DNA of 64,000 bases, taken from positions 3,228 through 67,227 of the forward strand of contig JBAQNS010000009.1 of assembly GCA_049304015.1 (NCBI GenBank). The letters are read 5' to 3'. This document shows positions 33,931 to 49,583 of the stretch, in pieces. The stretch's first letter is position 1. The number at the start of each line of letters is the position of its first letter. The DNA is from Minisyncoccia bacterium. Lineage in GTDB: Bacteria; Patescibacteriota; Minisyncoccia; Phycocordibacterales; Zambryskibacteraceae. Both the position numbers and the translations under genes were made by a program. The notes under the pieces are model-generated. The model worked only from the letters and a program-made list of their open reading frames with translations, was not told where the DNA came from and did not search any database.

Positions 33931-34006
33931 TGGTGGACCCTACCGGATTCGAACCGGTGACCTCCTCATTGCAAATGAGGCGCTCTACCAACTAAGCTAA
34001 GGGCCC
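33931..34006 (-). tRNA. tRNA-Ala (TGC), CCA encoded, with G3:U70
   Basis: Reverse complement is GGGCCCTTAGCTTAGTTGGTAGAGCGCCTCATTTGCAATGAGGAGGTCACCGGTTCGAATCCGGTAGGGTCCACCA: anticodon TGC, G3:U70 Ala identity pair, GGTTCGAATCC T-arm. Confidence 0.9.
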
Positions 34007-34069: not shown

Positions 34070-34140
34070 GGGCCTATAGTATAGTAGTAACACACGTCCA
34101 TGGCATGGACGAATCGCGGGTGCGATTCCCGCTAGGTCCA
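34070..34140 (+). tRNA. Non-canonical tRNA-like element, anticodon GGC (Ala-like, G3:U70), 71 nt, no encoded CCA
   Basis: GGGCCUA/UAGGUCC acceptor stem with G3:U70 and an anticodon stem-loop CGUCC-AUGGCAU-GGACG. The T-loop is UGCGAUU (G at the usual Psi55 position) and the D-arm is short/imperfect. Divergent to tRNA-Ala(TGC). Confidence 0.4.
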
Positions 34141-34153
34141 CTAATAAATAATT

Positions 34154-37922: not shown

Positions 37923-37967
37923 AAAAGCTATCAACAGTTTCTACACATGTTAGACACTTTGTCTACA

Positions 37968-37996
37968 TTGACACCTCTATATATAAGGCGTATACC
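37968..37996 (+). promoter_or_regulatory. Sigma70-like promoter TTGACA-17 nt-TATACC upstream of second beta-helix gene
   Basis: Seen directly; same -35/-10 hexamers as at 40151 and nearly the same as at 19690. Confidence 0.5.
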
Positions 37997-38084
37997 GAAA
38001 GCAACAACTTATTAGAGGTGTTTTTGTGTGTTAAGTTGCCTTAATCAAGTATTATTTAAATTAACTAGTATTAATAACATTAAA

Positions 38085-40085
38085 ATGAAATCTTTAATCA
38101 AATCAGCTTACAGGCTAACAGCCGTGGGTGGAATCCTCGCAGTAGCCTTCTTCGCTTTCGCGGGGAATGCGAAAGCGTATACTCAAGCAGACTTTGCAGC
38201 ATTTGATGGTGTTAATATCGGAACAAACAGTTATACGGTAAGTTCTGATATTACAGCGACATATATTAGTGGTACTGGTACTGAAACTGATCCAGTTAAG
38301 TTAACGTTAACAGGACATGCACCAATAATAACCCCATGGTTTGGCCAAAATTGGACAACGTATAACTATGTAGCAATAGGAATTAAACTACCGACGACAG
38401 GTTTTATTGGAACCCAAATAACTGGTGGAACTGCTGTATATCAAGCAGATGTGATGAGATATGATGATCTGACTAACTTTCCGAATGGCTATTACACAGT
38501 AGGATATGGAAGTATCCCATTGGCAACAGGAGGTGCCGCGCTCGGTTATTTGGACTATGAATTCGCAGCTAATTCAAATAATACTAAGAAAGACGGATTA
38601 GTTAAACTGAAAGTAATTTGGAATACAGATAGTGCACCCGAATATTTCACGATTGATATTAACGGCCTGCAATTAGATACCGCTACACACAAGTTTGTTT
38701 CTACTATTGGACAACTTACGTCAGCACTTGCTGCCGCAAATTCTGGCGACACAATTACACTAACCTCCAACATAACCACAAGTTCTGAGCTTGATATAAA
38801 CAAAGCTCTAACACTAGATGGTGCAGGACATAAATTAAGTGCTTCTTTTTTGAGAACAGATAATAGTAATAATTCTGCTATAGGAATTAAAAGTGTTGAC
38901 GGTGTAACAATAAAAAATCTTATAGTTGACGGAACAGGTGGGAGTTCAGTTTGGTTGAGTCAACTTCACGGGATAAATATATATTTATCAACAAATGTAA
39001 ACTTGAATGATGTAACAGCAATGAATTTTGGTGGTGCCGGCATTAATGTTAACGGTTCTTTAGTAACTGTAAACAACATCACAACATCAGGCAATTCATG
39101 GGGCGGTATTAATGTTGATAGACCAACAGTTACAAATACAACCACACTAACAGTAAATGGAATAAGTTCTCACAACGAAGTTAATGCTGCAATATGGAGA
39201 GATGATAATGCAAAAACAAACGTAACTGTTATAGATATGGATCACCAGTATTCTCAATCCACATATACTCATGATACAAATGTTGTAGGAACCTTGTGGA
39301 AGTTACTTGCAACAGGTCAAATTGTTCCAGAAAATGGTGAGGCTACAGTTACTCCAACAAATAAAGAAGTTGTTGTTACTGCAACGACACCAATCACGGT
39401 TAATCTGGGAAGTGTTGAAGACGCAACTATAAACTTTGATTCACTTATTACAAATGGAGAAGGAGTTATTCCTCAGACAACCATTATTTCAAATGTTGCA
39501 GAAGTAAAAATTGATGATGGTACAAAAGTCACTGCAACTGATACTAATTGGAATGGAGTGATGCAGGCACCAACAGCCGGTGATACATCAGGAACAGCTC
39601 CTGCCAGTTTCTCTGTTGGTAATACGGTTATTGAAATGGGTTCATCTCAATATACTCTGAACTTTGACAAGGCGGTGAAGATTACACTTCCTGGTGTCAC
39701 AGGTAGAGTTGGTTATAGACCAGCTGGTTCTACAGAGTGGCAGCTAATTACAACTCAGTGCACAAGTTCAACAGTTCCAGGTATCACCTCTGGTGAATGC
39801 TATGTTGCTGAAGGTGGAAATACTGTCATTTGGACTTACCACTTCACATCTTTTGGAGGACTAGAACCCATTTCTGTAAATAAATCTGGTGGAAGAAGTG
39901 GTGGAGGCAGAGCCACAATCTTACCTCCTCAAGCCTCTCCTGTAGCAGTAGGACGAGTACTCGGCGCAGAGACAGAAAATGCTGCAGCTGTAGCTCTACA
40001 GATTGCCTCCATTAAAGCTCAGTTAGCAGATTTGATTAGACAACTAATTACTCTTCTTCAAGCTCAGATAGATTCACAGAGATAA
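38085..40085 (+). CDS. Secreted parallel beta-helix surface protein (paralog) with conserved C-terminal heptad module
   Basis: Signal peptide MKSLIKSAY... (the same N-terminal 9 aa as the upstream gene); the beta-helix block NLIVDGTGGSS...GINIYLSTNVNLNDVTAMNFGGAGINVNGSLVTVNNITTSGNSWGGINVD is shared with the upstream gene; C-terminal QASPVAVGRVLGAETENAAAVALQIASIKAQLADLIRQLITLLQAQI. Confidence 0.7.
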   Translation: MKSLIKSAYRLTAVGGILAVAFFAFAGNAKAYTQADFAAFDGVNIGTNSYTVSSDITATYISGTGTETDPVKLTLTGHAPIITPWFGQNWTTYNYVAIGIKLPTTGFIGTQITGGTAVYQADVMRYDDLTNFPNGYYTVGYGSIPLATGGAALGYLDYEFAANSNNTKKDGLVKLKVIWNTDSAPEYFTIDINGLQLDTATHKFVSTIGQLTSALAAANSGDTITLTSNITTSSELDINKALTLDGAGHKLSASFLRTDNSNNSAIGIKSVDGVTIKNLIVDGTGGSSVWLSQLHGINIYLSTNVNLNDVTAMNFGGAGINVNGSLVTVNNITTSGNSWGGINVDRPTVTNTTTLTVNGISSHNEVNAAIWRDDNAKTNVTVIDMDHQYSQSTYTHDTNVVGTLWKLLATGQIVPENGEATVTPTNKEVVVTATTPITVNLGSVEDATINFDSLITNGEGVIPQTTIISNVAEVKIDDGTKVTATDTNWNGVMQAPTAGDTSGTAPASFSVGNTVIEMGSSQYTLNFDKAVKITLPGVTGRVGYRPAGSTEWQLITTQCTSSTVPGITSGECYVAEGGNTVIWTYHFTSFGGLEPISVNKSGGRSGGGRATILPPQASPVAVGRVLGAETENAAAVALQIASIKAQLADLIRQLITLLQAQIDSQR

Positions 40086-40104
40086 TTAGGATTAGATAAA
40101 TATT

Positions 40105-40132
40105 AAAAACTACCCTATTTAGGGTAGTTTTT
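40105..40132. terminator. Bidirectional-type terminator (CTACCCT-attt-AGGGTAG flanked by A5/T5)
   Basis: Seen directly. Confidence 0.6.
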
Positions 40133-40150
40133 ATATGCACTTTTTATCTA

Positions 40151-40179
40151 TTGACACACGGTGTTATTGAGAGTATACC
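40151..40179 (+). promoter_or_regulatory. Sigma70-like promoter TTGACA-17 nt-TATACC upstream of MBG gene
   Basis: Seen directly; it lies inside the annotated 5' extension of ORF 40151, so the true start is the ATG at 40193. Confidence 0.5.
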
Positions 40180-40192
40180 GAGGGTATCAAAT

Positions 40193-40678
40193 ATGTTGAC
40201 AAAGACAAAAAATTATAGGCAAGCAAACTATGTAGTGTTTTTAGCACTTGTTTTTACTGTAAATTTTTTATTTGTTTCTACTACCTTTGCAGTCGGTTCT
40301 ACCCAACAAACAATTTTGTTTGCTTCCATACCAGATAAGATTTATGGGGATAGTGACTTTATCATTAATGCCACATCAACAGATTCTGTTACTGGAGAAC
40401 CTACAGGACTACCAATTAACTTTGTTCTAAATCAAGGACCTTGCTCGATTAATTTGGTATCAGGAAGTACAACAATTCACATCATCGCAGCTTCAAGTAC
40501 TCCATGTAGACTCAAGGCAAACCAGGAAGGAAATGATACTTATGCGCCTATTGATAATGTTAACGTATCATTTTTAGTGTCACCCAAACCAATTACTATA
40601 AGTGTTTCTAATACAGAAAATAAAATTTTTGGAGAGCCAGATCCGGAGTTTGCATATACTGGAGCAGATTCCTTATGA
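40193..40678 (+). CDS. MBG-domain surface protein, N-terminal part (gene interrupted by frameshift at the 3' end)
   Basis: Signal/TM N-terminus; ends inside an MBG domain (KPITISVSNTENKIFGEPDPEFAYTGADSL-stop). Confidence 0.5.
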   Translation: MLTKTKNYRQANYVVFLALVFTVNFLFVSTTFAVGSTQQTILFASIPDKIYGDSDFIINATSTDSVTGEPTGLPINFVLNQGPCSINLVSGSTTIHIIAASSTPCRLKANQEGNDTYAPIDNVNVSFLVSPKPITISVSNTENKIFGEPDPEFAYTGADSL

Positions 40679-41202
40679 CGTTTAATGCGGGTATGCTGAA
40701 TATTGATGCGAGACCTTTAACTATAACTGGTGTGACAAATTCAAAAATATATGATGGTTCAATTTCAGCTGCTGCCATTCCAATAATCACCTCAGGCACA
40801 TTGGCTCCTGGTGATGTGGCGACCTTGTCTGAAACTTATGACTCTGAAGGAGTCGGCTCTGGCATAGCACTTAATGTTGATATTTTGATAAATAATGCTC
40901 TTGGTGCAGATGTAAGTGACAACTATATTACTACAACAATAAGTGGTGTTGGAGATATATTAGCAGTCCCTCAAGAGGTTCAAACACCAGAGCCTGTAAG
41001 GAGCTCTGGTGGGGGAAGATCGACATCAAGATTACAGACATCTACAGCTTTAACCGCACCAACGGTTGGTCGTGTTCTTGGTGCAGAGACAGAGAACACT
41101 GCTGCTGTAGCTCTACAGATTGCCTCAATCAAAGCTCAACTGGCTGATTTAATTAGACAATTAATAGCACTTCTACAAGCACAGATTCTTTCTGCACAGT
41201 AG
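40675..41202 (+). CDS. MBG-domain surface protein, C-terminal part with conserved C-terminal heptad module (ATGA overlap with upstream part)
   Basis: Begins with the tail of an MBG repeat (TFNAGMLNIDARPLTITG), then a second MBG repeat, then TVGRVLGAETENTAAVALQIASIKAQLADLIRQLIALLQAQI. Confidence 0.5.
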   Translation: MTFNAGMLNIDARPLTITGVTNSKIYDGSISAAAIPIITSGTLAPGDVATLSETYDSEGVGSGIALNVDILINNALGADVSDNYITTTISGVGDILAVPQEVQTPEPVRSSGGGRSTSRLQTSTALTAPTVGRVLGAETENTAAVALQIASIKAQLADLIRQLIALLQAQILSAQ

Positions 41203-41274
41203 AAATAAAATCAGAATAATCAAACAAAAAACTTGCCCATAGACTTGGGTGAGTTTTTGATTTATAATCATATT

Positions 41275-42258
41275 ATGATTAAGTGGTTCAAAAAACACTT
41301 TATACCTCATGAAGGCAATGACCATCAGCCTCATTTTCTTCGTACCAAAAATATTCGAGCAGTCGTTCTAATTCTTTTTGTTTTGGAGTTAGGAGTTTTT
41401 GCCATTCCTTATATACCTGCAATAGGTCCAGCATACAACAATTACCTCGCAGCAGTTTTGCCCGGAGTGTTGGACAGTCTTTCTAATCAAACAAGACAAG
41501 AAAATCATTTAGCCACCCTTACTGTTAGCCCACTCTTAAATAAAGTGGCTGAACTGAAAGCGAAGGACATGGCAGAAAAAGGATACTTTGCCCACACCAG
41601 TCCCGAAGGCAGAGCGCCTTGGTATTGGTTCGATAAAGCTGGTTATAAATATTTGTTCGCTGGAGAGAACTTAGCAGTAGACTTCACTGATTCAAAAGAT
41701 GTTACTTTGGCCTGGATGAATTCTCCTACACATAGAGCCAATATAGTGAAAGGCGTCTATACAGAAATGGGTACTGGAGTAGTGAGTGGTAACTTTGAAG
41801 GTCACCCAACTATTTTTGTTGTCCAAGTCTATGCGAGACCACTAACTACGATTGCTACTGTTTCTGAACCAAGTGCAGTTTCAAATATTAAGCCAACAAC
41901 AACTCAAACTACTAAGACTGTTGAATCCAAGGTCCTCGGTGCAGAAGTGGCCTTAGATGCAAACGTCACTTCACCCACACAACCTAAATCAAATTTGCTC
42001 ATGCAGTATGTTACTTCTCCTGGACGTGTAGCCAATATGATTTTTGTTATTTTGGGCATAATGATTTTACTCGCCTTAGTACTGAAATTATTTATAAGAA
42101 CAGATAAACGACATCCAAAACTCATTACCAATGGACTTGTTGTTTTGGTACTAATCTTTGGAATTTATAGTGTGAATAGTTACATAACCAAGAATAAAAT
42201 TTCACATAATATTACTTTCTACAGCTTTAACAATGAGAACCTTACTGACACTTACTAG
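41275..42258 (+). CDS. CAP/SCP/PR-1 (YkwD-like) domain protein, membrane-anchored at both ends
   Basis: CAP motifs (HYTQVVWRATxxVGCA-like: GHPTIFVVQVY; HRANIVKGVYTEMGTGVV) and N- and C-terminal TM helices. Start taken at MIKWFKK, downstream of a TATAAT box. Confidence 0.7.
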   Translation: MIKWFKKHFIPHEGNDHQPHFLRTKNIRAVVLILFVLELGVFAIPYIPAIGPAYNNYLAAVLPGVLDSLSNQTRQENHLATLTVSPLLNKVAELKAKDMAEKGYFAHTSPEGRAPWYWFDKAGYKYLFAGENLAVDFTDSKDVTLAWMNSPTHRANIVKGVYTEMGTGVVSGNFEGHPTIFVVQVYARPLTTIATVSEPSAVSNIKPTTTQTTKTVESKVLGAEVALDANVTSPTQPKSNLLMQYVTSPGRVANMIFVILGIMILLALVLKLFIRTDKRHPKLITNGLVVLVLIFGIYSVNSYITKNKISHNITFYSFNNENLTDTY

Positions 42259-42998
42259 AGCACCTCTATTTCAGAAATTTTATTTGATTTAAATTCATAT
42301 AGACTGGCTGGTCGGGAACGATTACCAATTCTCTTGTGATGTAGTCTCTCTAGTATCTTTAATTTCAATATTTTCTTCCTAAAATTACGCTTATCCAAAT
42401 CAGCCTTGAGGATACTCTCGTATGCTTGTTCGAGTTCAGTGAGAGTAAATTCTTTGGGCATCAGTTTGCACATCAATGTTGTATAAGTGATTCTTGATTG
42501 GAGTCTCCTTAGAGCTACTTTGAGAACTTCATCGTGGTCATAGGCAAGATTTGATAATTGATCAACATGTTTCCATGACAATTCTCTAGTATTAATTTTT
42601 TCTGTTTCAGTTAATGATTCCCATGGCACTAATCCAATATAGGCGACTGCCACAACGCGTCCACGAGGATCTCTATTAATGCGGCTAAATGTATATAATT
42701 GCTCAATATGAATTTTTTTAGTTGAAATCATGCCCGCTCTATCTTTCACTAGACGTACTACCGCTTGCTCAGCTGTTTCAGTAGGGAGCATAAGGCCACC
42801 AGGAAGTCCTGGTCTATCTACAAAGTGGGGGATATGGTTGACTTTCATGATGCGGACAAGAAGTTCCTTATTGTGAATAGTGAATAAGGCTATATCTGCG
42901 GCCAAGACAGCGAAACGTAGGTGTTTAGGAGAACTATTTTTAGGCATAAATAATTTATAGCAACATACAGATATATTGTCAAATATACACTTATCCAC
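42255..42998 (-). CDS. NrtR-like regulator (degenerate Nudix domain plus C-terminal winged-helix)
   Basis: Nudix fold with an incomplete Nudix box (GLPGGLMLPTETAEQAVVRLVKDRAG lacks the REx2EE glutamates) and a C-terminal DNA-binding-like region. The likely start is the Met at 42947. Confidence 0.6.
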   Translation of the reverse strand: MDKCIFDNISVCCYKLFMPKNSSPKHLRFAVLAADIALFTIHNKELLVRIMKVNHIPHFVDRPGLPGGLMLPTETAEQAVVRLVKDRAGMISTKKIHIEQLYTFSRINRDPRGRVVAVAYIGLVPWESLTETEKINTRELSWKHVDQLSNLAYDHDEVLKVALRRLQSRITYTTLMCKLMPKEFTLTELEQAYESILKADLDKRNFRKKILKLKILERLHHKRIGNRSRPASLYEFKSNKISEIEVL

Positions 42999-43132
42999 AG
43001 TTTAGTAATTGTATAGTTGACACTAAGTAAATTAAGGAATAGTGTGAGGTTAGACATATAAACCAAGCACTATTCTGAACCATTGACTGTGTCTTATAAG
43101 TGTTATAGAGTAGTGCGGGTTTAGACCGTTCT

Positions 43133-44023
43133 TTGTCAGAGAGATTTAGTTTAGCTGACAATCTATTTAGTTCAATTTTGACCTCAAAAGGAGGGATATT
43201 GATTATCAAAGATCCTGGCTCTGGGAAGAGCTATGAAGTTGGTCAAAGAGTGGCTGAGACCGAAAGGTATCGGCTTTATCTCTGTAGACCAGAGGGTGAG
43301 TCTTCGGACCACCTGCTTCAAATCGCGGTGGAGGTGGAGCATAATGCTGCCCTCGATCGCGCGTCGTACGTTCTGGAAAGGCTCGAAGAAGAAGCTCGCA
43401 AGATCGAGGAAGAGTTCGCCAAGGTGAAAACCGAGCCGAATCACTTCCTGAATTACCAACTCTGTTTCCCCAAGGTCGTGGGTTCATTCATACCAGACGA
43501 TCAGGGTGGCAGACGAGTAAACATCCTTTGCTTCAGAGAGGTGGAGGATGTAGGCAAGGTTGTACCGCTACAGAACCTCGTAGAGACGGACAAGCTTCGT
43601 GCAGATTTGAGGTCGAGTGCTTGGATCATGGGGAAACTCCTCAAGATCCTCATCTTCCTCAATGATGCGAATGTGGTTGCTCATGATCTGTCGCTCGGCA
43701 ATGTTCTCATCGAACCCGAGCAACACTACGTCATCATTTTCAGTTGGGCTGACGCCGAATTGAAAGCTGGTGCAGTAGGTAGAGCAATCACGAGAAGTGA
43801 AATTCAAGCAGCTGCTCGCGTTGTCATCGAAGTGCTGGGAGGTACTCTCGAAGGAGGTATCCCCGGTGATGGTGGTCAAGAGCATGTTCAGTATCAGAAG
43901 TTTCTCTTCGACCTCGCACATGGCAGTGAAAGTAACGCGGCACTGGCTCACATGTCGTTCTACAAGTTGGTTGATAGTTTGTGGCCACGCGGTTTCTATC
44001 CATTCACCACCCACTCTCGGTAA
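43133..44023 (+). CDS. Protein-kinase-like/APH-family phosphotransferase (divergent) - first gene of high-GC island
   Basis: Gly-rich loop IKDPGSGKSYEV and catalytic loop VAHDLSLGNVLIE (compare HGDLHPGNIL of APH/CotS and HRDLKPENIL of kinases), followed by IIFSWADAE. High-GC codon usage. The start is ambiguous: TTG at 43133, or TTG at 43199 after an AAGGAGGG SD. Confidence 0.55.
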   Translation: MSERFSLADNLFSSILTSKGGILIIKDPGSGKSYEVGQRVAETERYRLYLCRPEGESSDHLLQIAVEVEHNAALDRASYVLERLEEEARKIEEEFAKVKTEPNHFLNYQLCFPKVVGSFIPDDQGGRRVNILCFREVEDVGKVVPLQNLVETDKLRADLRSSAWIMGKLLKILIFLNDANVVAHDLSLGNVLIEPEQHYVIIFSWADAELKAGAVGRAITRSEIQAAARVVIEVLGGTLEGGIPGDGGQEHVQYQKFLFDLAHGSESNAALAHMSFYKLVDSLWPRGFYPFTTHSR

Positions 44024-44040
44024 AACGGGAAGGAAGGACG

Positions 44041-45165
44041 ATGGGAAGCAGAACATTCTCGAGGGATGCCTACGTCAAGGCGAGCAGCTTGTACACCAAG
44101 CCGGGTGAGTCAACGACTGCCCGAGGTGAACAAGAAGTTCGTCGGACAGGCAAGCTGAATCCACTTGTGGATCCGGCTGAATTCGGAGTAGTGCGTGAAT
44201 CACGCATTCGCCTCGAAGATCGAGAAGGAGGTGGCTTCACTGTCACCGTGGGCACACCAGTGCCTGTCGAGTATCGTCTGGACACCACTGGTTCCATGGG
44301 TGACAACGTCGAACGGGCGTACAAGGCACTGCCGCATACGTGCGAGCATGTGGCCGCTGTACTGCCAGGCCGAGACCCCTTCTACTGCGCTTCGATTTTC
44401 GGTGATGTCGTCGACCAGTTCGTACTGTGTCGAGGACAATTCGAAGCCGAAGCAGAGAAGATGGTCAACCAACTCACGCTCATGGTTCCAGAAGGTAGCG
44501 GTGGAGACACCCCAGAAGATCCTCAGTACGGACTCTTCGGTGCCGCCTACCTTACCAACGCTTATCTGCAACGTATCGGTTTGCGCTCCTATGACTTCAC
44601 TGTCACGGACGCACCGATGCATGATCTGATTAGCGCCAAGCAGCTCAAGCGTATCTTCGGTGATGAAGTGTTCGAGAAGCTGAAGGAAAATGGCCAGTCG
44701 ATTTCAGCGAAGGATTTACCCTCCAATACAGAGATCGTCAAGGATCTCTTGAAGAGGGCTCATGCCTTTGCTTTCATGGTTGGCAATTCTGCCACCCACG
44801 CCTGGACCAGCCTCTACGGTTCCGAACACGTGATTCTTCTGCCCCGGATCGAGTACACTCCTCACATCATGGCCGTTATCATTGGCCTGACGGAAGGAAC
44901 TCTCGATTTGCGTTCATCCAAGGATTTCTTGACTGAACGCAACCTCAGCAAGGTCGAAGCACAGGGCATCATCGACGCAGTGGCGCACATCCCGCTCGGT
45001 GCACAGACCATGTGCCCCAATTTCGACAAGTTGCCCAAGGCAGGTGACATCTTCAAGGAGAAGACCGACCTCTGGCCGATCGATCCGGAAGACATTCCTA
45101 CTTCTGCTGCTCCGAAGAAGGGCAAGAAGGGCGGCAAGGAATCTGGCAAGGGTGGGTGGCTCTAG
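44041..45165 (+). CDS. von Willebrand factor A (vWA) domain protein with MIDAS motif
   Basis: RLDTTGSMGDN (DxTGS MIDAS), a later VTDAPMHD element, and a Lys/Gly-rich C-tail. GGAAGGAAGGA SD before the ATG at 44041. Confidence 0.7.
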   Translation: MGSRTFSRDAYVKASSLYTKPGESTTARGEQEVRRTGKLNPLVDPAEFGVVRESRIRLEDREGGGFTVTVGTPVPVEYRLDTTGSMGDNVERAYKALPHTCEHVAAVLPGRDPFYCASIFGDVVDQFVLCRGQFEAEAEKMVNQLTLMVPEGSGGDTPEDPQYGLFGAAYLTNAYLQRIGLRSYDFTVTDAPMHDLISAKQLKRIFGDEVFEKLKENGQSISAKDLPSNTEIVKDLLKRAHAFAFMVGNSATHAWTSLYGSEHVILLPRIEYTPHIMAVIIGLTEGTLDLRSSKDFLTERNLSKVEAQGIIDAVAHIPLGAQTMCPNFDKLPKAGDIFKEKTDLWPIDPEDIPTSAAPKKGKKGGKESGKGGWL

Positions 45166-45192
45166 GCTTTCACTTCGACCGAGGACGTGACG

Positions 45193-46566
45193 ATGAAAAA
45201 GATTTACGTCGTCACGGACCTTGGTCCTGGTGACGGTGGTAAGGGTGGTGTGGTCCACAAGATCAGCCACATGCAAGGTGCTCACACTATCCTCAAGGTA
45301 GGAGGAGCACAGGGAAGTCATGGAGTATCTACTTCGAGTGGAAAACGATTTGCCTTTAGTCAATTTGGTTGTGGCACCTTCGAAGGTGTTCGCACTCACT
45401 TGACCAAGAGGTTCGTTGCTTCACCTGAAGGGATACTCAACGAAGCGCAAGCTTTGGATCAAGGTTGTGGTTTGAGTGATGTCTACAGTCTGCTCACAGT
45501 GGATGAGGATGTCATTTGTGCCACTCCGTATCATGGCATCTCTTCACGCTTGAAAGAGCTTGCAAGAGGAGATAATCTTCGCGGTACGATTGGGACAGGG
45601 GTTGGTGAGGCGTTTCGCTACAACCAACGTTTTCCTGAACTGACTATCCGTGCGAAGGATCTCTTCAGCCAAAACCTAAGAGAGCTGCTGGCTGCAGTTA
45701 GAGACCAACTACACGTTGACCTCGAATCTGTAATTAGTGGTACTTTCTTAGAAAGTGATAGGGTCTTAGTTGAACAAGAAGTAGATCGTCTGCTTGATCC
45801 GAAATACCTTGAATTTATTTTGCATCGTTTTCGAACGGCTGCAAAGCATGTCCGAATAGTAGGCCAAGAGTATTTTCATGATCTTACCACCAGCTATGGT
45901 GTGATGGTTGTTGAAAGTTCTCATGGTGTACTGACGGATCATTTTCAAGGGTTTCATCCTCATACTTCAGCCATTCGAACACTTCCTCGCTTCACGCGTG
46001 GGATGCTCGAAGAAGTTGGATATGATGGCGAACTGGTGAACATTGGGGTAACCCGTGCATATCAAATTCGTCATGGTGCAGGGCCTATGCCAACAGCCGA
46101 TGAGGCTATGGCAGAAAACCTTTTACCAGGAAGTTCGAAGGATGAGAATCGCTATCAGGGAAAGGTGCGTGTTGGTCCACTTGATTTGGTACTGCTTCGT
46201 TATGCGATAGCAGCCTGTGGTGGACCAGATGCATTCGACGGCTTGGCTGTCACCTGGTTCGATCAAATCCAGGAGAATGGATCTTGGTTTTTGTGTCGGA
46301 GCTACAAGGGAGCAACAGATCAAAACTTTTTCACCCCACAAGGTGAGTTGAAGGTTCGATTTGGAGATGATGAAGAACAGTTGAAGTATCAGGAGGAACT
46401 TGGTCACCATCTAGAAAGGTGCGTACCAGTGCTCACAGAGCACACAGTTTCTCCTGGTCCCAACTTTAACTTCCTCACTTGCTCTGCAGTATTGAATGAA
46501 GCACTTCGAGTACCTGTACGGATGGTCTCGTTCGGATCTACCGAACAAGAAAAATTGTGTAGGTGA
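45193..46566 (+). CDS. Adenylosuccinate synthetase (PurA)-family protein, highly divergent
   Basis: PurA hallmarks present: GDGGKGG (cf. GDEGKGK), GGAQGSHG (cf. GGHNAGHT), GTIGTGVGEA (cf. GTTGRGIGP), TRAYQIRHGAGPMPT (cf. TRVGAGPFPTE), VRVGPLDLVLLRYA (cf. GWLDTVAVRRA). The Asp-binding GATTGRRRR loop is replaced by NRYQGKVRVG and Gln224 (EGAQG) is replaced by His (ESSHG). Confidence 0.75.
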   Translation: MKKIYVVTDLGPGDGGKGGVVHKISHMQGAHTILKVGGAQGSHGVSTSSGKRFAFSQFGCGTFEGVRTHLTKRFVASPEGILNEAQALDQGCGLSDVYSLLTVDEDVICATPYHGISSRLKELARGDNLRGTIGTGVGEAFRYNQRFPELTIRAKDLFSQNLRELLAAVRDQLHVDLESVISGTFLESDRVLVEQEVDRLLDPKYLEFILHRFRTAAKHVRIVGQEYFHDLTTSYGVMVVESSHGVLTDHFQGFHPHTSAIRTLPRFTRGMLEEVGYDGELVNIGVTRAYQIRHGAGPMPTADEAMAENLLPGSSKDENRYQGKVRVGPLDLVLLRYAIAACGGPDAFDGLAVTWFDQIQENGSWFLCRSYKGATDQNFFTPQGELKVRFGDDEEQLKYQEELGHHLERCVPVLTEHTVSPGPNFNFLTCSAVLNEALRVPVRMVSFGSTEQEKLCR

Positions 46567-46588
46567 ATTCAAACCACAAGGAGTAACC

Positions 46589-47737
46589 GTGGGAACTTCT
46601 GCAGAACCGACCGTTGGTGACGCTGTCACCACGAGGCTCACCGAATTGGGTGTCGAACCGACTGTGATCGAGAAGATCAGGACGGACCTCGGCGCCACTT
46701 CGGTGGACGATCTGGCTGGCCTCAACGAGAGTGATCTCGTCGGCGCCGGCATGAAGGCTCTTCCGGCGAGGAATCTCGTCGCAAAGCTCAGGAAGGCCGC
46801 AGCGGAAGCTGCTGCTCCTGCCGCAAGTGCAGTCAGCACGATGTCGTTCGAAGGCGTACTGCCGGCAGTGCCGGATGATACGTCATGGCTTGCGGCACTT
46901 CGTGCAGGTGGAGTTCTGAAGGTCGATCAGTCGACCGTCATCTCCGCCGTTCGTGCAGGACTCGCTCACCGGGTCGGACTCTTCGAAGTTCCGGATCTGC
47001 TCGTCGCAGAGATGGAGCGGTTCTCGGATGCGAACGAAGAGCAGGTCGACCCGGAGTTCTTCAAGCTCCGCAAGATGCTGACTCGCAAGTCGTACGGCGA
47101 TATCTTCGAGGCCATCGAAGGACTCGAAGGCTCGTACGTCACCGAGGGTCGCAAGAAGGAACTCTTCAGCCGTCTCGATGGCAAGTTGTGGCCGGCAATC
47201 ATCAGCTTCAACGGCGCCCTTAAGGCGTGGCAGGAAGCATGGATGCAGGGTGCAGCCAATCCTGCCATCATGATGAGCGCGATCTTTGCGGCTTCTGGTA
47301 CTGGTGGTGGAGCGATGCCTCCGGGCATGATGCAGCCACCCGATACCGGCGTCCTGCGTGACAACGCGGCAGCCGTGGCGGACGCAGTCAATCGCGTTTT
47401 CGCTGGGACTGGCGTGCAGATCGCCGCGGCCCTCGCATACGAGGCGTCGCGTATCAAGGAGACTCTCACGAACCCGCGGTTGCCCGCCCTTATCGGTGCG
47501 GCCAATCGCGACCAGATGCTTCGTCAGCTGGGTGTGGCCGTTTCGGCGACCTATCCTCGCCTCGAGATGAACCTGACCAAGTTCGTGCTGGCGGTTCTGC
47601 AGGCACAGGACCAGCCGGCCGGCAACGAAGAGCTTCAGTACTTCGGTGCCATGTACATGCTCGGGTCCCAGATCCCCTGGGAGCAGCTGGGTTCGACTGG
47701 CAAGCCGTCGGGTATCGGCGGCGGTCGTCGCCTCTAG
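46589..47737 (+). CDS. Hypothetical protein with tandem N-terminal HeH/SAP-like motifs and Gly/Met/Pro-rich central segment
   Basis: GTG start after a GGAG SD; LTELGVEPTVIEKIR and LAGLNESDLVGAGMKALPARNLVAKLRKAA helix-extension-helix patterns; GTGGGAMPPGMMQPP segment; high-GC codon usage. Confidence 0.55.
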   Translation: MGTSAEPTVGDAVTTRLTELGVEPTVIEKIRTDLGATSVDDLAGLNESDLVGAGMKALPARNLVAKLRKAAAEAAAPAASAVSTMSFEGVLPAVPDDTSWLAALRAGGVLKVDQSTVISAVRAGLAHRVGLFEVPDLLVAEMERFSDANEEQVDPEFFKLRKMLTRKSYGDIFEAIEGLEGSYVTEGRKKELFSRLDGKLWPAIISFNGALKAWQEAWMQGAANPAIMMSAIFAASGTGGGAMPPGMMQPPDTGVLRDNAAAVADAVNRVFAGTGVQIAAALAYEASRIKETLTNPRLPALIGAANRDQMLRQLGVAVSATYPRLEMNLTKFVLAVLQAQDQPAGNEELQYFGAMYMLGSQIPWEQLGSTGKPSGIGGGRRL

Positions 47738-47766
47738 AACCAAATCTCTCAATAAGTACATTAGTT

Positions 47767-47797
47767 GGGCGGATACGATTAGTGTCCGCCCTTTTTC
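47767..47797 (+). terminator. Rho-independent terminator (GGGCGGA-N11-TCCGCCC followed by T5) closing the high-GC island
   Basis: Seen directly; composition returns to low GC immediately after. Confidence 0.6.
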
Positions 47798-47807
47798 ATT
47801 GCCTAAT

Positions 47808-49583
47808 TTATGAAAGTTTAGGGAGAAAAACTCTTTGGGTAAAAAGTTTAAGTGCAGTTTGTCTAAATCCTGAATCCCAAAATACACTCTTTCCATCAAC
47901 AAGTTCGGAATGTTCAGTATGCAATCCGCCGGAGGGAGGTAAAAATTTCTTGTACCCCTTGTGCATCAGTCTGTATTGCAAGGTGTCTCTTTCAAGTTCC
48001 TCTAAGAAAACTCTTCGTGCAGGCAATCCATAAATTTCACCATTATTGTAAAAATATTGAGTCAAAAGTTTTTCGTGCAAATCTTTTATCACTTGTTTGT
48101 CTCCATCCCAAACTGCTCCAAACAAAACATGGGTCCAGTAACTTTCTCCTACGAATGGTTCTGGTTTATCAAAATCATGAACCTTTAATCCAATTGGTGC
48201 TTCCTCTAACCAAAACTCTATAGTGTCTCCATGAGCATATTTTTGAGGAAGCTTTGACTTGAGTAACTCCTTAACTCTCTCCTTATCCTCCAATTTAATT
48301 TCAGGTTTAACAAAAATAGCCAAATCTAAGTCAGAATTTGATGTCCCATAGCCCTTAAGTTTTGAGCCAAAATACAATGCCACAGGGTATAAATACTGTG
48401 CCAGCTCTGCATCATTTTCGATTATTGAGGTAATATTATTCATAATTTCTTGATCATTATTAGCCTCAGTCAAATTTTTTGAAAACGGTCCTGATAGGGA
48501 AGTGAGTTTTAGACCAAGACTCAAAAATACAGCTTCATCCAAAATATTTAATTTGTTTAATCTATAGAAAAGAGTTGAAAGTTCATCTACAGTCTCTGGA
48601 GTTTTTTTATCCCAAAGTGACATTATGATATCCTCATATTTTTTGTATATTTTTATAGCTTCATCTTGATTTACTGCTGTTGTTGACTCTATGGCATCTC
48701 GGATACCAATAACCAAGGCGAGTTTGTCATCACTAGTTACGACCTTTTCATCCTCTAGTACTAGTTTTGCTATATCACGGGCTTTTGATTCTGTATCCCT
48801 TCTCTTTCTTTCACTACTTAACCAAGCAGTGCGTCCTTCTGTGACTATTTCTGGTTCTTCAATTTCAATTCTAGCTTCAGAAACATTAATTTGCCCCAAG
48901 TATTTATCCTCCACAAGTCCCAGGTCGACCGCTACAGTGAGTGCTTCATATGCATTTTGTCTAAAGACGTCATCATCACTTTCACTGATTAAGTTTAAAA
49001 CTTTATCTACACTAATTAATTCCTTTTCTATTAATTTAGGGATTAAGTGCGCAGCCTTTACCACTCTGGGCAAATCACTTTCTCTTAATTCTACTTCTAA
49101 TACATCTCCATCAACAAAATTTGCTCGGACATCATGTATATCTAAGCATGCTTCCCATGCATTCATGTATGTTGCTCTAAATTTTTCTGCAGCTTGTGAC
49201 AGTTCACTATCAGGAGCACCTAAATTTACACTCGGTAAATATTCGAATGGCACATAAAGCAAAGCTCTTTTATAATCTGGGTTTTCAAGTAAATGACTCA
49301 ATGATTCAAACAAATCTATAACCTGCTTCTCACTCAGCTGGCCTTCATTTAGTGCCAGTTCTAACTCAATATTAGGTTTTCGCATATTAGAAATCACAGC
49401 TTCAACACTTTCAATTATTTTTTTGCGTTCTTCTATTTGTTTAATGAATACCTCATTGTCCAAAATCTTTTCTGGCCAAACATTCGACTGATTAGTTGAA
49501 TCAAGTAGTGATTCAACTGCAGGTACGGTAAATTGTCTTTTCTCTGCTGATTCTTCGTTTAGATTTGTGCCCTCTCTATACAT
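47808..49583 (-). CDS. Pol-beta-superfamily nucleotidyltransferase domain protein with large N-terminal helical region
   Basis: C-terminal GS...D.D motif (FGSKLKGYGTSNSDLDLAIFV); 591 aa. The true start is probably downstream of 49583 because of the divergent overlap with ychF. Confidence 0.5.
   Translation of the reverse strand: MYREGTNLNEESAEKRQFTVPAVESLLDSTNQSNVWPEKILDNEVFIKQIEERKKIIESVEAVISNMRKPNIELELALNEGQLSEKQVIDLFESLSHLLENPDYKRALLYVPFEYLPSVNLGAPDSELSQAAEKFRATYMNAWEACLDIHDVRANFVDGDVLEVELRESDLPRVVKAAHLIPKLIEKELISVDKVLNLISESDDDVFRQNAYEALTVAVDLGLVEDKYLGQINVSEARIEIEEPEIVTEGRTAWLSSERKRRDTESKARDIAKLVLEDEKVVTSDDKLALVIGIRDAIESTTAVNQDEAIKIYKKYEDIIMSLWDKKTPETVDELSTLFYRLNKLNILDEAVFLSLGLKLTSLSGPFSKNLTEANNDQEIMNNITSIIENDAELAQYLYPVALYFGSKLKGYGTSNSDLDLAIFVKPEIKLEDKERVKELLKSKLPQKYAHGDTIEFWLEEAPIGLKVHDFDKPEPFVGESYWTHVLFGAVWDGDKQVIKDLHEKLLTQYFYNNGEIYGLPARRVFLEELERDTLQYRLMHKGYKKFLPPSGGLHTEHSELVDGKSVFWDSGFRQTALKLFTQRVFLPKLS

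What the first reader, a model, noticed from the sequence alone, without database searches (positions are those of the whole stretch)
43133..47800. A 4.7-kb high-GC foreign island encoding a four-gene cassette: APH/kinase-like, vWA, divergent PurA-family enzyme, HeH-domain protein
GC content jumps from about 35% to about 57% at roughly 43.2 kb, and the four co-directional genes show strong GC3 bias (GTC/GGC/GCC/CTC codons). The cassette has its own upstream AAGGAGGG SD, inter-gene SDs (GGAAGGAAGGA, GAGGA, GGAG) and a clean terminator at 47767-47797, after which host composition resumes. I do not recognise the domain set as any known operon or defence system: an APH/protein-kinase-like phosphotransferase, a vWA protein with MIDAS, a PurA-like GTP-dependent ligase with an altered substrate pocket, and a HeH/SAP-like protein. 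A kinase plus a carbonyl-activating amide ligase plus a vWA scaffold suggests a small-molecule or nucleotide modification pathway, or a conflict/defence module acquired from a high-GC donor. The cassette sits in an accessory-looking stretch that begins at the tRNA-Ala pair near 34.0 kb.
Basis: partly seen in the sequence, partly recalled or inferred. Interest (0 to 1): 0.85.

Follow-up and report, generated by a model that had tools for sequence, protein, structure and literature searches.

The report
Conserved Patescibacteria vWA–PurA-like gene module
The GC-rich "island" is real, but it is a five-gene module of unknown function that is kept in the same order in many Patescibacteria (tiny candidate-phyla bacteria), has relatives in large phages, and sits next to the regulator and genes of NAD metabolism.

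Summary
Bases 43.1-47.8 kb are 53% GC against 37.7% elsewhere. Two independent assemblies reproduce both junctions exactly.

The "imported from a high-GC donor" reading does not hold. The same gene order, plus a convergent Pol-beta nucleotidyltransferase gene, occurs in about 80 Patescibacteria species. In 71 of 73 loci the four genes are GC-richer than their flanks. The nucleotidyltransferase gene co-evolves with them yet has host-like GC.

- **p1:** kinase fold, but it lacks the catalytic residues.
- **p2:** a vWA protein with an invariant MIDAS motif.
- **p3:** a PurA-superfamily ligase. It keeps the catalytic residues but has lost the IMP-phosphate and aspartate ligands. It is neither PurA nor PurZ.
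- **p4:** an N-terminal SAM domain (not HeH) followed by an unmatched all-helical domain.

A vWA plus PurA-like pair lies adjacent in all 11 phage loci examined, including Bxz1-type mycobacteriophages. NrtR abuts the module in 7 loci, and every recurrent extra neighbour is an NAD gene.

I infer an NrtR-controlled protein complex built around a nucleotide ligase of new specificity. No description was found in the literature searched.

The parts
42255..42998 (-). NrtR-family regulator (NUDIX domain plus NrtR winged-helix domain), divergent from the cassette
   Evidence: Pfam gives NrtR_WHD 3.2e-22, AraR_C 3.5e-12 and NUDIX 3e-6, all above the gathering scores. NCBIfam gives 'ADPR responsive transcriptional repressor NtrR' at 117 bits, below the equivalog cut-off of 400. 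GC is host-like at 37.5%.
43037..43075 (.). Imperfect 39-nt palindrome in the NrtR/p1 intergenic region; a candidate operator, not proven
   Evidence: The arms are 15 nt and 80% complementary. The core AATAGTG...CACTATT is unique in the window, with 0 matches expected from shuffles. A related half-site, AATAAGTGTC-N5-GACACTTATT, lies between NrtR and p1 in L019. No motif common to all NrtR-linked loci was found.
43199..44023 (+). p1: protein-kinase-like fold, probably catalytically inactive (274 aa; the alternative start 43133 gives 296 aa)
   Evidence: The family profile hits the CK2-alpha catalytic-loop region at E 1e-5 and phrog_3043 'kinase' at 5.5e-5. hhalign against mycobacteriophage Gizmo gp267 'ser/thr kinase' gives probability 98.7%, E 1.7e-16. 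In the alignment the beta3 Lys is Gln in most members, there is no conserved HRD Asp, and the DFG Asp is Ser in this protein. A natural p1-p2 fusion exists, P0410.
44041..45165 (+). p2: vWA-domain protein with a MIDAS motif (374 aa)
45193..46566 (+). p3: PurA-superfamily ligase of a distinct clade (457 aa)
   Evidence: PF00709 scores 1.7e-29 and phrog_1211 5.5e-40. NCBIfam PurA equivalog models score 71 bits against a cut-off of 402, and the PurZ model gives no hit. D13, K16, H41 and D333 are kept. N38 is Q, T129 is I/V, R143 is lost, Q224 is H, V273 is H, T300 is W/Y, T301 is Q, the R303-R305 cluster is lost, and K331 is W.
46589..47737 (+). p4: N-terminal SAM domain plus an all-helical domain of about 280 aa with no detectable relatives (382 aa)
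47767..47791 (.). Intrinsic terminator between the convergent p4 and nucleotidyltransferase genes
   Evidence: GGGCGGATAC-GATTA-GTGTCCGCCC followed by TTTTT; 10 stem pairs, 7 of them GC.
47808..49583 (-). Convergent Pol-beta-type nucleotidyltransferase with a large conserved N-terminal region (591 aa); the fifth module gene
   Evidence: Pfam Polbeta or NTP_transf_2 hits occur in 26 and 22 of 33 orthologues. G406, S407, D418 and D420 are invariant. PDB profile hits are HI0073 and GLD-2. The gene was detected in 78 of the 86 CPR loci fetched, convergent and directly downstream of p4 in nearly all. Its GC is host-like, 35.8% and a mean of +0.6 points across loci. It co-evolves with p1-p4, r = 0.73-0.89.

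Best explanation
This is a chromosomal five-gene module that is conserved across Patescibacteria. It is not a recent import.

**Core (shown).** The core is a vWA/MIDAS protein (p2) paired with a PurA-superfamily ligase (p3). The same pair lies adjacent in large phages.

**Chemistry (inferred).** p3 most likely performs PurA-type chemistry. An NTP, probably GTP, would phosphorylate a ring carbonyl of a purine-like nucleotide, and an amine would then displace the phosphate. Both substrate pockets are rebuilt, so the nucleotide is not bound the way IMP is and the amine is probably not free L-aspartate.

**Accessory proteins (inferred).** p1 is an inactive kinase-fold protein, fused to p2 in one homologue. 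p1 and p2 would be non-catalytic partners that bind or present the substrate, or regulate p3. The SAM domain of p4 would oligomerise or anchor the complex. The convergent Pol-beta nucleotidyltransferase would be a co-inherited regulatory or modifying partner.

**Regulation (inferred from gene neighbourhood).** In this genome and several others the module would be under NrtR, the ADP-ribose-responsive repressor of NAD genes. The product or activity would therefore serve NAD or adenine-nucleotide homeostasis.

**What is shown and what is not.** Shown: conservation, synteny, folds, the residue pattern, the phage relatives and the NAD neighbourhood. Inferred: complex formation, NrtR control, the chemistry and the physiological role.
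For: **Conservation and synteny.** The order p1-p2-p3-p4 followed by the convergent nucleotidyltransferase gene holds in nearly all of 80 species-level Patescibacteria loci. The same is seen on contigs of 0.2-1 Mb. Clustering of flanking genes shows that only these five genes are shared across loci. Pairwise identities of the five proteins correlate at r = 0.71-0.92.

**Folds and residues.**
- p2 has a vWA fold and an invariant MIDAS motif.
- p3 keeps catalytic D13, K16 and H41, the guanine-contacting D333 and the C-terminal SxGP motif. It loses N38, T129 and R143 (IMP phosphate) and T300, T301 and the R303-R305 cluster (aspartate). The same derived states occur in the phage clade.
- p1 has a kinase fold without the catalytic residues.
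- P0410 is a p1-p2 fusion.
- p4 has a SAM fold.

**Phage relatives.**
- A vWA gene lies directly upstream of the PurA-like gene in 11 of 11 phage loci, and a kinase-like gene is found in at least 8 of them.
- 202 Bxz1-type mycobacteriophages carry a p3 homologue at 34% identity.

**NAD link.**
- NrtR is confirmed here.
- It abuts the module within 400 bp in 7 of 82 loci, on either side, and NAD genes lie within 10 kb in 15 of 82.
- All recurrent non-module neighbours are NAD-related: NrtR, ADP-ribosylglycohydrolase, NAPRTase, PncA, NadE, NMNAT and NAD-dependent ligase.
- In L005 the module sits inside a NadB-NadA...NadE-NadK-NAPRTase-PncA cluster.
- Rhizobium phage RHph_TM3_3_6 has genes annotated as a phosphoribosyltransferase-like protein and an NMN adenylyltransferase/NUDIX protein about 4 kb upstream of its vWA-PurA-like pair.
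Against: - There is no biochemical evidence. No substrate can be named.
- The NAD neighbourhood is present in only about 18% of loci. Most loci, and the Bxz1-type phages, show no NAD genes nearby.
- No NrtR operator shared between loci could be defined.
- p3 could have lost activity on any nucleotide and act on a protein instead.
- The components (vWA, kinase-like, SAM, nucleotidyltransferase) are also typical of conflict systems.
- This explanation does not account for the strong excess of GC3. Whether it reflects high expression could not be tested, because the window holds no ribosomal-protein genes for calibration. In L003 the housekeeping genes have similarly high GC3.
Confidence: 0.5

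Rival explanations
1. An anti-phage defence or other conflict module, or a phage-derived counter-defence module that the host has taken over. vWA, pseudokinase and SAM parts would sense infection, and the ligase or nucleotidyltransferase would make or destroy a nucleotide signal, possibly tied to NAD depletion.
For: - Close functional relatives of the p1-p2-p3 trio are phage genes.
- The phage versions of p1 carry J-domains.
- vWA, kinase-like, SAM and Pol-beta nucleotidyltransferase domains are common in conflict systems (my own knowledge of the comparative-genomics literature).
- The flanking genes vary between genomes.
- NAD is a frequent battleground, and NAD salvage genes lie beside the pair in a Rhizobium phage.
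- The C-terminal domain of p4 is swapped in some lineages.
Against: - No PADLOC family matches p1-p4.
- One copy was found per locus fetched, and the order is fixed in about 80 species from many classes.
- Sequence conservation is high (p2-p4 are 45-52% identical on average across the phylum), and all five genes co-evolve.
- The neighbours are housekeeping genes such as YchF, LeuRS and a sigma factor, not defence islands, integrases or transposases.
- The link to a metabolic repressor, NrtR, fits housekeeping better.
Confidence: 0.2
2. One reading: a recently acquired foreign island from a high-GC donor, inserted between host genes.
For: The GC boundaries are sharp at 43.1 and 47.8 kb, and codon usage is strongly atypical: Lys AAG 92% against 44% in host genes, and Leu CTC+CTG 71% against 22%. 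The flanking NrtR and nucleotidyltransferase genes have host-like composition.
Against: - The best homologues are all from Patescibacteria, at 59-80% identity. No near-identical donor was found.
- The cassette occupies the same position relative to the nucleotidyltransferase gene in about 80 species and co-evolves with that host-GC gene.
- The GC excess appears in 71 of 73 loci in the same gene order, p4 > p2 > p3 ~ p1. That points to a gene-specific equilibrium rather than an unameliorated import.
- There are no integrase genes, direct repeats or tRNA genes at the junctions. The tRNA-Ala pair lies 9 kb away.
Confidence: 0.06
3. p3 is simply the organism's housekeeping adenylosuccinate synthetase (IMP to AMP salvage), and the other genes are unrelated neighbours.
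For: The Pfam PurA domain is present, and the catalytic Asp, His and P-loop Lys are kept. Sources name the protein 'adenylosuccinate synthetase'. Patescibacteria depend on nucleotide salvage (established knowledge).
Against: - p3 scores 71 bits against the curated PurA equivalog cut-off of 402.
- The ligands for the IMP phosphate and for aspartate are replaced throughout the family.
- No adenylosuccinate lyase gene was seen in any of the loci whose flanking genes were annotated.
- Strict co-occurrence with p1, p2 and p4 across about 80 genomes and in phages excludes chance neighbours.
Confidence: 0.08
4. An assembly chimera joining a high-GC contig to a low-GC genome.
For: Only the abrupt change in composition.
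Against: Two separate assemblies from different sequencing runs are 100% identical across both junctions. An NCBI MAG contig of 76 kb carries the identical p2 protein. The same junction architecture, NrtR or flank - p1..p4 - nucleotidyltransferase gene, recurs in other genomes.
Confidence: 0.01

Closest known systems
The 'ser/thr kinase - hypothetical protein - PurA-like adenylosuccinate synthetase' gene trio of Bxz1-type (cluster C1) mycobacteriophages, e.g. Gizmo gp267, gp268 and gp270. The PHROG families are phrog_3043, phrog_2971 and phrog_1211. The trio is annotated but, as far as I could find, not characterised.
   Same: All three proteins are homologous and in the same order. p1 against gp267 gives hhalign 98.7%, p2 against gp268 gives 97.8%, and p3 against gp270 is 34% identical over 85% of its length. 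The derived substitutions in the PurA pocket are shared: N38Q, V273H, T300 to an aromatic residue, T301Q, loss of R303-R305 and loss of K331.
   Different: - The phage sets have no p4 (SAM) and no Pol-beta nucleotidyltransferase.
- Phage kinase-like proteins in the metagenomic phage loci carry an N-terminal J-domain, and some keep the HxD Asp.
- Phage enzymes keep Q224, L228 and T239, where the Patescibacteria enzymes have H, T and S.
- The Patescibacteria p3 has an extra C-terminal segment of about 80 aa.
- The Patescibacteria module is chromosomal, and in a subset of genomes it lies next to NrtR.
Adenylosuccinate synthetase PurA (E. coli, PDB 1ADE)
   Same: The fold and the Pfam family are the same. 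The P-loop GD-GKG, catalytic Asp13 and His41, Lys16, Asp333 and the C-terminal SxGP motif are kept.
   Different: The profile match is only E 1e-15 to 1e-16. p3 scores 71 bits against the equivalog cut-off of 402. The IMP 5'-phosphate ligands (N38, T129, R143) and the aspartate ligands (T300, T301, R303-R305) are replaced, and Q224 is His. PurA needs no vWA or kinase-like partner.
PurZ, the 2-aminoadenine (Z-base) pathway enzyme of S-2L and PhiVC8-type phages
   Same: It is a phage-borne PurA homologue with changed specificity. Aromatic residues occupy the NTP-base site: PurZ has F295 and Y298 according to bioRxiv 10.1101/2025.10.22.683976, and here the motif is W-F-D.
   Different: PurZ has Ser in place of PurA Asp13 (same preprint), whereas p3 keeps Asp in 77 of 78 sequences. 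The NCBIfam PurZ model NF038379 gives no hit for p3. No DatZ or MazZ-type genes are adjacent.
The NrtR regulon of NAD metabolism (Nudix-related, ADP-ribose-responsive repressor)
   Same: An NrtR-family gene lies divergent to or adjacent to the module, and NAD salvage and synthesis genes lie nearby in 15 of 82 loci.
   Different: None of the five module proteins belongs to a known NAD enzyme family. Regulation by NrtR is inferred from position only.
The TerY-P triad (vWA protein + Ser/Thr kinase + PP2C phosphatase), from my own knowledge of the Ter-system comparative-genomics literature
   Same: A vWA/MIDAS protein is encoded next to a kinase-fold protein.
   Different: There is no PP2C phosphatase. 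The kinase-fold protein lacks catalytic residues. A PurA-like ligase is the constant partner.

Membership tests
Adenylosuccinate synthetase (PurA) - superfamily | Pfam PF00709 domain above the gathering score | tested here: met
   103.3 bits against a cut-off of 27, covering residues 15-378.
Adenylosuccinate synthetase (PurA) - functional equivalog | Score above the curated NCBIfam/TIGRFAM equivalog cut-off | tested here: not met
   NF002223 gives 71.1 bits against 402, and TIGR00184 gives 63 bits against 395.6.
Adenylosuccinate synthetase (PurA) - functional equivalog | Catalytic Asp13, His41, Lys16 and the P-loop | tested here: met
   D in 77 of 78 sequences; H and K in 78 of 78.
Adenylosuccinate synthetase (PurA) - functional equivalog | IMP 5'-phosphate ligands Asn38, Thr129 and Arg143 | tested here: not met
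   N38 is Q in 76 of 78; T129 is I or V in 78 of 78; R143 is E, D, G or A.
Adenylosuccinate synthetase (PurA) - functional equivalog | L-aspartate ligands Thr300, Thr301, Arg303 and Arg305 | tested here: not met
   T300 is W, Y or F; T301 is Q in 77 of 78; R303 aligns to a gap; R305 aligns to V or I in the MAFFT alignment. The HMM alignment places one retained Arg nearby, so the exact register is uncertain, but the Thr-Thr pair and the Arg cluster are gone.
Adenylosuccinate synthetase (PurA) - functional equivalog | Guanine-specificity motif (T/N)KxD (Lys331, Asp333) | tested here: inconclusive
   D333 is kept in 78 of 78, but K331 is W in 76 of 78, so the motif reads TWFD. The choice of NTP cannot be decided from sequence.
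PurZ (2-aminoadenylosuccinate synthetase) | Ser at the position of PurA Asp13, and a match to the PurZ model NF038379 | tested here: not met
   Asp is kept. NF038379 gives no hit for p3, whereas Gizmo gp270 gets a weak hit of 59 bits against a cut-off of 300. The definition of the residue comes from bioRxiv 10.1101/2025.10.22.683976.
vWA domain with MIDAS | Rossmann-like vWA fold | tested here: met
vWA domain with MIDAS | DxSxS-type metal-site motif | tested here: met
   In the motif 'RLDTTGSMG', D81, T83 and S85 are invariant in 46 sequences. The phage homologues keep it as LDVTGS or LDFSGSMG. Metal binding itself was not tested.
Active protein kinase / APH-type phosphotransferase | Kinase fold | tested here: inconclusive
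   Only the alphaE to catalytic-loop segment matches CK2-alpha, at E 1e-5. Pfam Pkinase hits 2 of 27 members at 0.019. The match to a phage protein annotated as a kinase is strong. No structure model was made.
Active protein kinase / APH-type phosphotransferase | Catalytic residues: beta3 Lys, HRD/HGD Asp and DFG Asp | tested here: not met
   In the alignment, the 'LLQIA' segment has Gln where the Saccharibacteria members have Lys. No Asp is conserved before the Asn of 'GNILIEP'. The 'FDW' Asp is Ser in the window protein.
SAM (sterile alpha motif) domain | Five-helix SAM fold | tested here: met
Pol-beta superfamily nucleotidyltransferase (MNT-like) | G-S...D-x-D catalytic motif and Pfam Polbeta or NTP_transf_2 | tested here: met
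   G406, S407, D418 and D420 are invariant. Polbeta hits 26 of 33 orthologues, with a best E of 7.5e-7. The window protein itself, at 25.3 bits, is just below the gathering score of 26.9.
NrtR (ADP-ribose-responsive NAD regulator) | NUDIX-like domain plus a C-terminal NrtR winged-helix domain | tested here: met
   Both domains score above the Pfam gathering scores.
NrtR (ADP-ribose-responsive NAD regulator) | Binds an operator upstream of its target genes and is released by ADP-ribose | not testable with these tools
   There is only a candidate palindrome at 43037-43075. The NCBIfam equivalog score is 117 against a cut-off of 400.
Known anti-phage defence systems (PADLOC-DB v2) | Any component matching a PADLOC model | tested here: not met
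   There were no hits for p1-p4 at E <= 0.1. The nucleotidyltransferase was not scanned against PADLOC.
Phage kinase-like / vWA / PurA-like trio (phrog_3043, phrog_2971, phrog_1211) | Homology of all three proteins and the same gene order | tested here: met
   The vWA-PurA-like adjacency holds in 11 of 11 phage loci.
TerY-P triad | vWA + active Ser/Thr kinase + PP2C phosphatase | tested here: not met
   No PP2C domain is present in the module or its immediate neighbours, and the kinase residues are absent.

The most novel reading that the evidence does not exclude
The vWA + PurA-like pair, with its pseudokinase, is a previously unrecognised enzyme machine shared by large phages and Patescibacteria. 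On this reading it makes or repairs a non-canonical purine or NAD-related nucleotide. Examples would be an N6-substituted adenylate formed with an amine other than aspartate, or re-amination of a hypoxanthine-containing dinucleotide or ADP-ribose analogue. In Patescibacteria the machine would have been fixed as an NrtR-controlled part of NAD and adenylate homeostasis, with a SAM-domain scaffold and a nucleotidyltransferase added.
Probability: 0.3. Interest if true: 0.85.

Novelty: new variant of a known kind. Interest (0 to 1): 0.7.

Why it matters
Patescibacteria make up a large share of bacterial diversity. They have tiny genomes that shed most metabolism, so a five-gene module of unknown function that they keep intact, in fixed order and with strong sequence conservation, is likely to matter for how they live.

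The link to NrtR and NAD salvage genes gives a concrete hypothesis that can be tested. The module's core also occurs in hundreds of sequenced phages, including the well-studied Bxz1-type mycobacteriophages. There it is annotated only as 'PurA-like', and the vWA partner is annotated as hypothetical. Those phages can be manipulated genetically, so the chemistry could be solved in a tractable system and the result carried over to Patescibacteria.

If p3 uses a new nucleotide or amine substrate, it would add a third specificity class to the PurA family, after PurA and PurZ.

The family-wide GC3 excess of a gene set inside low-GC genomes is also a caution. Composition alone is not a safe indicator of horizontal transfer.

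Tried and rejected
1. **Exact-protein look-up of p3 with the GTG start.** Nothing was on record. The ATG start, and the p2 and p4 products, did lead to the public copies of the contig.
2. **Literature.** Seven full-text searches combining adenylosuccinate synthetase or PurA-like with NrtR, Patescibacteria, Saccharibacteria, von Willebrand, kinase, phage and anti-defense found no description of the module. They returned only PurZ papers and phage genome announcements.
3. **Sequence-profile searches of p2 and p4 against PDB.** Nothing useful came back. p2 needed a structure model.
5. **NrtR operator.** The palindrome in the window is unique to this genome. Inverted repeats in six other NrtR-adjacent intergenic regions share no clear motif apart from a similar half-site in L019. 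I dropped this as unproven.
6. **SelO-like AMPylase idea for p1 and gp267.** I considered this because Gizmo gp267 reads 'HGAITPDN'. I rejected it because the catalytic-loop residues vary freely among the phage homologues (HGA, HAA, HGN, HRE, HGD, HND, HHD).
7. **High expression as the cause of the high GC3.** This could not be tested. The other high-GC3 ORFs in the window are small proteins that are unannotated or regulatory, and there are no ribosomal proteins. In L003, S15 and PNPase have similarly high GC3, so the question stays open.
8. **tblastn of p2 against the phage collection.** There was no hit. The relationship shows only at profile level, or through the phage vWA proteins as intermediates.
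9. **Kinase-like partner in the Rhizobium and Vibrio phages.** The candidate upstream ORFs are not p1 homologues.

Full report
**1. The observation**

Between about 43.0 and 48.0 kb, GC in 500-base windows rises to 44-61%. Most flanking windows lie at 33-41%. The island averages 53.0% GC and the rest of the window 37.7%.

Four co-directional ORFs fill the island. I refined their starts using gene calls on public copies of the same contig and by reading the sequence:
- p1: 43199-44023 (TTG after AAGGAGGG; 43133 is also possible)
- p2: 44041-45165
- p3: 45193-46566
- p4: 46589-47737

The hairpin at 47767-47791 is a clean intrinsic terminator.

GC3 is 0.52, 0.62, 0.39 and 0.69 for p1 to p4, against 0.26-0.32 for the neighbouring genes. 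p4, p2 and p1 have the three highest GC3 values of 57 ORFs in the window.

The worry about a chimera can be set aside. Two Logan assemblies from different runs are 100% identical to the window over 19.3 kb and 10.2 kb, and each spans both junctions. An NCBI MAG labelled 'Minisyncoccia bacterium' carries the identical p2 protein on a 76-kb contig.

**2. It is not a one-off island**

p3 has hundreds of homologues at 59-70% identity. Where sources name them, almost all are from Patescibacteria, and some sit on contigs up to 1 Mb. p2 and p4 behave the same way.

In three unrelated large contigs the same four genes are present and are followed by a convergent gene of about 640 aa. A scan of one genome per GTDB species returned 80 loci. 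They include Saccharibacteria, Peribacteria, Falkow-, Uhr-, Davies-, Wildermuth- and Moranbacteria, Paceibacterota and Nanosyncoccus. tblastn shows the order p1-p2-p3-p4 plus the convergent gene in almost all of them.

Clustering every flanking ORF from 82 loci shows that only these five genes are shared. The surroundings differ from genome to genome.

Pairwise identities of the five proteins correlate, with Pearson r between 0.71 and 0.92. The five genes have therefore travelled together.

**3. The GC signal belongs to the cassette, not to this genome**

In 71 of 73 loci with enough flanking sequence, p1-p4 are GC-richer than their flanks. The mean excess is +7.8 points and the maximum +20.8. 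The order p4 > p2 > p3 ~ p1 recurs. The adjacent convergent gene is host-like, at +0.6 points.

Most of the excess is at synonymous sites. The mean GC3 excess is +19.5 points for p4, +12.5 for p2, +6.7 for p1 and +3.7 for p3, against -3.2 for the convergent gene. In the window the cassette avoids A-ending codons: AAG makes up 92% of Lys codons against 44% in host genes, and CTC plus CTG make up 71% of Leu codons against 22%.

A gene that co-evolves with the cassette but keeps host composition argues against repeated import. It argues for a gene-specific cause, either selection on codons or mRNA, or very high expression. I could not tell which. This stays unexplained.

**4. What the proteins are**

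- **p3** belongs to the PurA superfamily (PF00709, 1.7e-29). It is far from any PurA: 71 bits against a curated equivalog cut-off of 402, and no hit to the PurZ model. I aligned 78 Patescibacteria sequences and 11 phage sequences to E. coli PurA.
  - Kept: the P-loop, Asp13, Lys16, His41, Asp333 and the C-terminal SxGP motif.
  - Replaced, IMP 5'-phosphate ligands: N38 to Q, T129 to I or V, R143 lost.
  - Replaced, aspartate ligands: T300 to W or Y, T301 to Q, the R303-R305 cluster lost.
  - Other changes: Q224 to His, V273 to His, and K331 to Trp.
  - PurZ is defined by Ser at the Asp13 position (bioRxiv 10.1101/2025.10.22.683976). Here Asp is kept.
- **p1** matches only the catalytic-loop region of CK2 at profile level, E 1e-5. 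It is clearly homologous to a phage protein annotated as a ser/thr kinase. The alignment lacks the beta3 Lys in most members, has no conserved catalytic Asp, and in this protein also lacks the DFG Asp. I read it as a pseudokinase.
- **The convergent 591-aa protein** is a Pol-beta-type nucleotidyltransferase. Its G-S...D-x-D residues are invariant, and it has a large conserved N-terminal region of unknown fold.

**5. Phage relatives**

A scan of IMG/VR with the p3 profile found three Patescibacteria-type modules and eight contigs of 14-608 kb flagged as viral, with PurA-like genes at 26-35% identity. tblastn and PHROGs show a vWA gene (phrog_2971) directly upstream of each of those PurA-like genes, and a kinase-like gene (phrog_3043) in most. 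These are the same three PHROG families that p1-p3 hit weakly at the start.

In GenBank phages, p3 matches 220 genomes. Of these, 202 are Bxz1-type mycobacteriophages, at 34% identity over 85% of the protein, where the gene is annotated 'PurA-like adenylosuccinate synthetase'.

In phage Gizmo the order is gp267 'ser/thr kinase', gp268 hypothetical, gp269, then gp270 PurA-like. hhalign links p1 to gp267 at 98.7% and p2 to gp268 at 97.8%. Rhizobium and Vibrio phages have the vWA-PurA-like pair without the kinase-like gene.

The phage and Patescibacteria enzymes share the derived pocket residues, so they form one clade with a changed specificity.

Two further points bear on how the parts work together. 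The kinase-like proteins in the metagenomic phage loci carry N-terminal J-domains, and only some keep an HxD Asp. A 679-aa protein found in an exhaustive search with the p2 profile is a natural p1-p2 fusion, which suggests the two proteins act together. That search found only 572 representatives in 1.84 billion proteins, so the p2 family is small and specific.

**6. The NAD connection**

The gene divergent from p1 is an NrtR-family regulator. It hits NCBI's model for the 'ADPR responsive transcriptional repressor', though below the equivalog cut-off.

Across 82 loci, NrtR is the only non-module gene found in more than six loci; it is present in 12. The next most frequent neighbours are ADP-ribosylglycohydrolase, NAPRTase, nicotinamidase-type isochorismatase, NAD synthase, an NMNAT-like gene and NAD-dependent DNA ligase.

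NrtR abuts the module within 400 bp in seven loci. In some it lies upstream of p1 and in others upstream of the nucleotidyltransferase gene. Fifteen loci have at least one NAD gene within 10 kb. In L005 the module sits between NadB-NadA and NadE-NadK-NAPRTase-PncA.

Independently, Rhizobium phage RHph_TM3_3_6 has genes annotated as a phosphoribosyltransferase-like protein and an NMN adenylyltransferase/NUDIX protein about 4 kb upstream of its pair.

The different arrangements imply repeated juxtaposition, which is good guilt-by-association evidence. It covers only about a fifth of the loci, and I could not define a shared operator.

**7. Most likely mechanism**

- **Shown:** a co-inherited five-gene unit; the folds; retention of the phosphotransfer residues in p3; loss of the IMP-phosphate and aspartate ligands; an inactive-looking kinase fold; a p1-p2 fusion; phage homologues; the NAD neighbourhood.
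- **Inferred:** p3 still activates a ring carbonyl of a nucleotide with an NTP and couples it to an amine, but with a different nucleotide context and a different amine. p1 and p2 are non-catalytic partners that bind p3 or its substrate through the MIDAS site. The SAM domain of p4 oligomerises or anchors the assembly. The nucleotidyltransferase modifies or regulates one of these parts. NrtR turns the module on when ADP-ribose signals NAD turnover.

My confidence differs between the parts of this account:
- About 0.9 that this is a conserved Patescibacteria module and not an import.
- About 0.6 for a functional link to NAD or adenylate metabolism.
- About 0.25 for the specific chemistry.

**8. 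Rivals**

- **Defence or conflict.** This fits the domain types and the phage relatives. It fits poorly with the absence of PADLOC hits, the fixed order, the high conservation, the co-evolution, the housekeeping neighbours and a metabolic repressor.
- **Recent import from a high-GC donor.** Sections 2 and 3 contradict this.
- **Plain PurA.** The equivalog score and the pocket residues contradict this.
- **Chimera.** Excluded by the independent assemblies.

**9. Novelty**

Seven full-text searches found no description of the module. In databases its proteins are 'hypothetical' or 'adenylosuccinate synthetase'. I rate it a new variant of a known kind: a PurA-superfamily ligase clade with obligate vWA and pseudokinase partners. 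There is a real chance that the chemistry is new.

Noticed in passing
L092 5873-6922, L095 4817-5968, L096 6079-6921, L097 1501-2646, L098 6067-7029, L099 4310-5335: The phage homologues of p1 are fusions of an N-terminal J-domain (HPD motif) with the kinase-like domain. The catalytic-loop His-x-Asp survives in only some of them (HGD, HND, HHD). The Patescibacteria p1 has no J-domain.
   Followed up: partly
P0410 (679 aa; from the exhaustive search with the p2 profile): A natural fusion of the kinase-like protein (residues 14-293) and the vWA protein (residues 347-669). It points to a physical partnership between the two. It could also be a gene-calling or frameshift artefact, because only one such representative was seen.
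   Followed up: partly
L001 11407-12405, L005 11528-12505, L009 11428-12414, L040 11346-12383: In some lineages the gene at the p4 position keeps the N-terminal SAM domain but has a different, shorter C-terminal domain (about 330-345 aa in total). The C-terminal module is therefore exchangeable.
   Followed up: partly
window 43133-47800 and 73 related loci: The excess of GC3 in p4 and p2 (+19.5 and +12.5 points on average) is conserved across the phylum, while the co-inherited convergent gene is host-like. The cause is unknown; it could be expression level, mRNA structure or something else.
   Followed up: partly
window 46883-47902 (-), 46966-47505 (-), 43568-44056 (-): Long antisense ORFs of 160-339 aa lie inside the GC-rich cassette. 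They are best explained as artefacts of a stop-poor composition. In my ORF clustering the antisense ORF even displaced p4.
   Followed up: yes
window 33931-34006 (-), 34070-34141 (+), 34154-35011 (+): A divergent pair of tRNA-Ala genes (TGC and GGC) is followed directly by a 285-aa NUDIX-domain protein. This is a second NUDIX gene, 8 kb from NrtR. Its substrate, and any link to ADP-ribose, were not examined.
   Followed up: no
window 36216-42258: The stretch upstream of NrtR encodes probable surface or secreted proteins: an ice-binding-like domain (36216-37922), a YDG domain (40675-41202), and a CAP domain with a C-terminal membrane segment (41233-42258). Its GC is host-like, so 'accessory-looking' describes gene content rather than composition.
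   Followed up: partly
L013, L019, L022, L034, L046, L052 (record titles); L015; L027: Several contigs that carry the full Patescibacteria-type module are titled 'uncultured Gammaproteobacteria', 'Fibrobacteres' or 'Omnitrophota' in their records. These are likely placeholder or mis-binned taxonomy rather than real occurrences outside Patescibacteria. I did not verify this.
   Followed up: no
L089-L091 (IMG/VR contigs, 30-408 kb): Three contigs classed as viral in IMG/VR carry the Patescibacteria-type module; the two whose DNA extends past p3 also carry p4 and the nucleotidyltransferase gene. They may be Patescibacteria genome fragments or prophage-containing contigs. I did not check whether real phage genes are present.
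   Followed up: no
L096 5170-6039: In one huge-phage contig an ATP-grasp protein of the R2K clade (PF14243, 5.4e-19) lies immediately upstream of the kinase-like, vWA and PurA-like genes. It is another amide-forming ligase sitting next to the trio.
   Followed up: no
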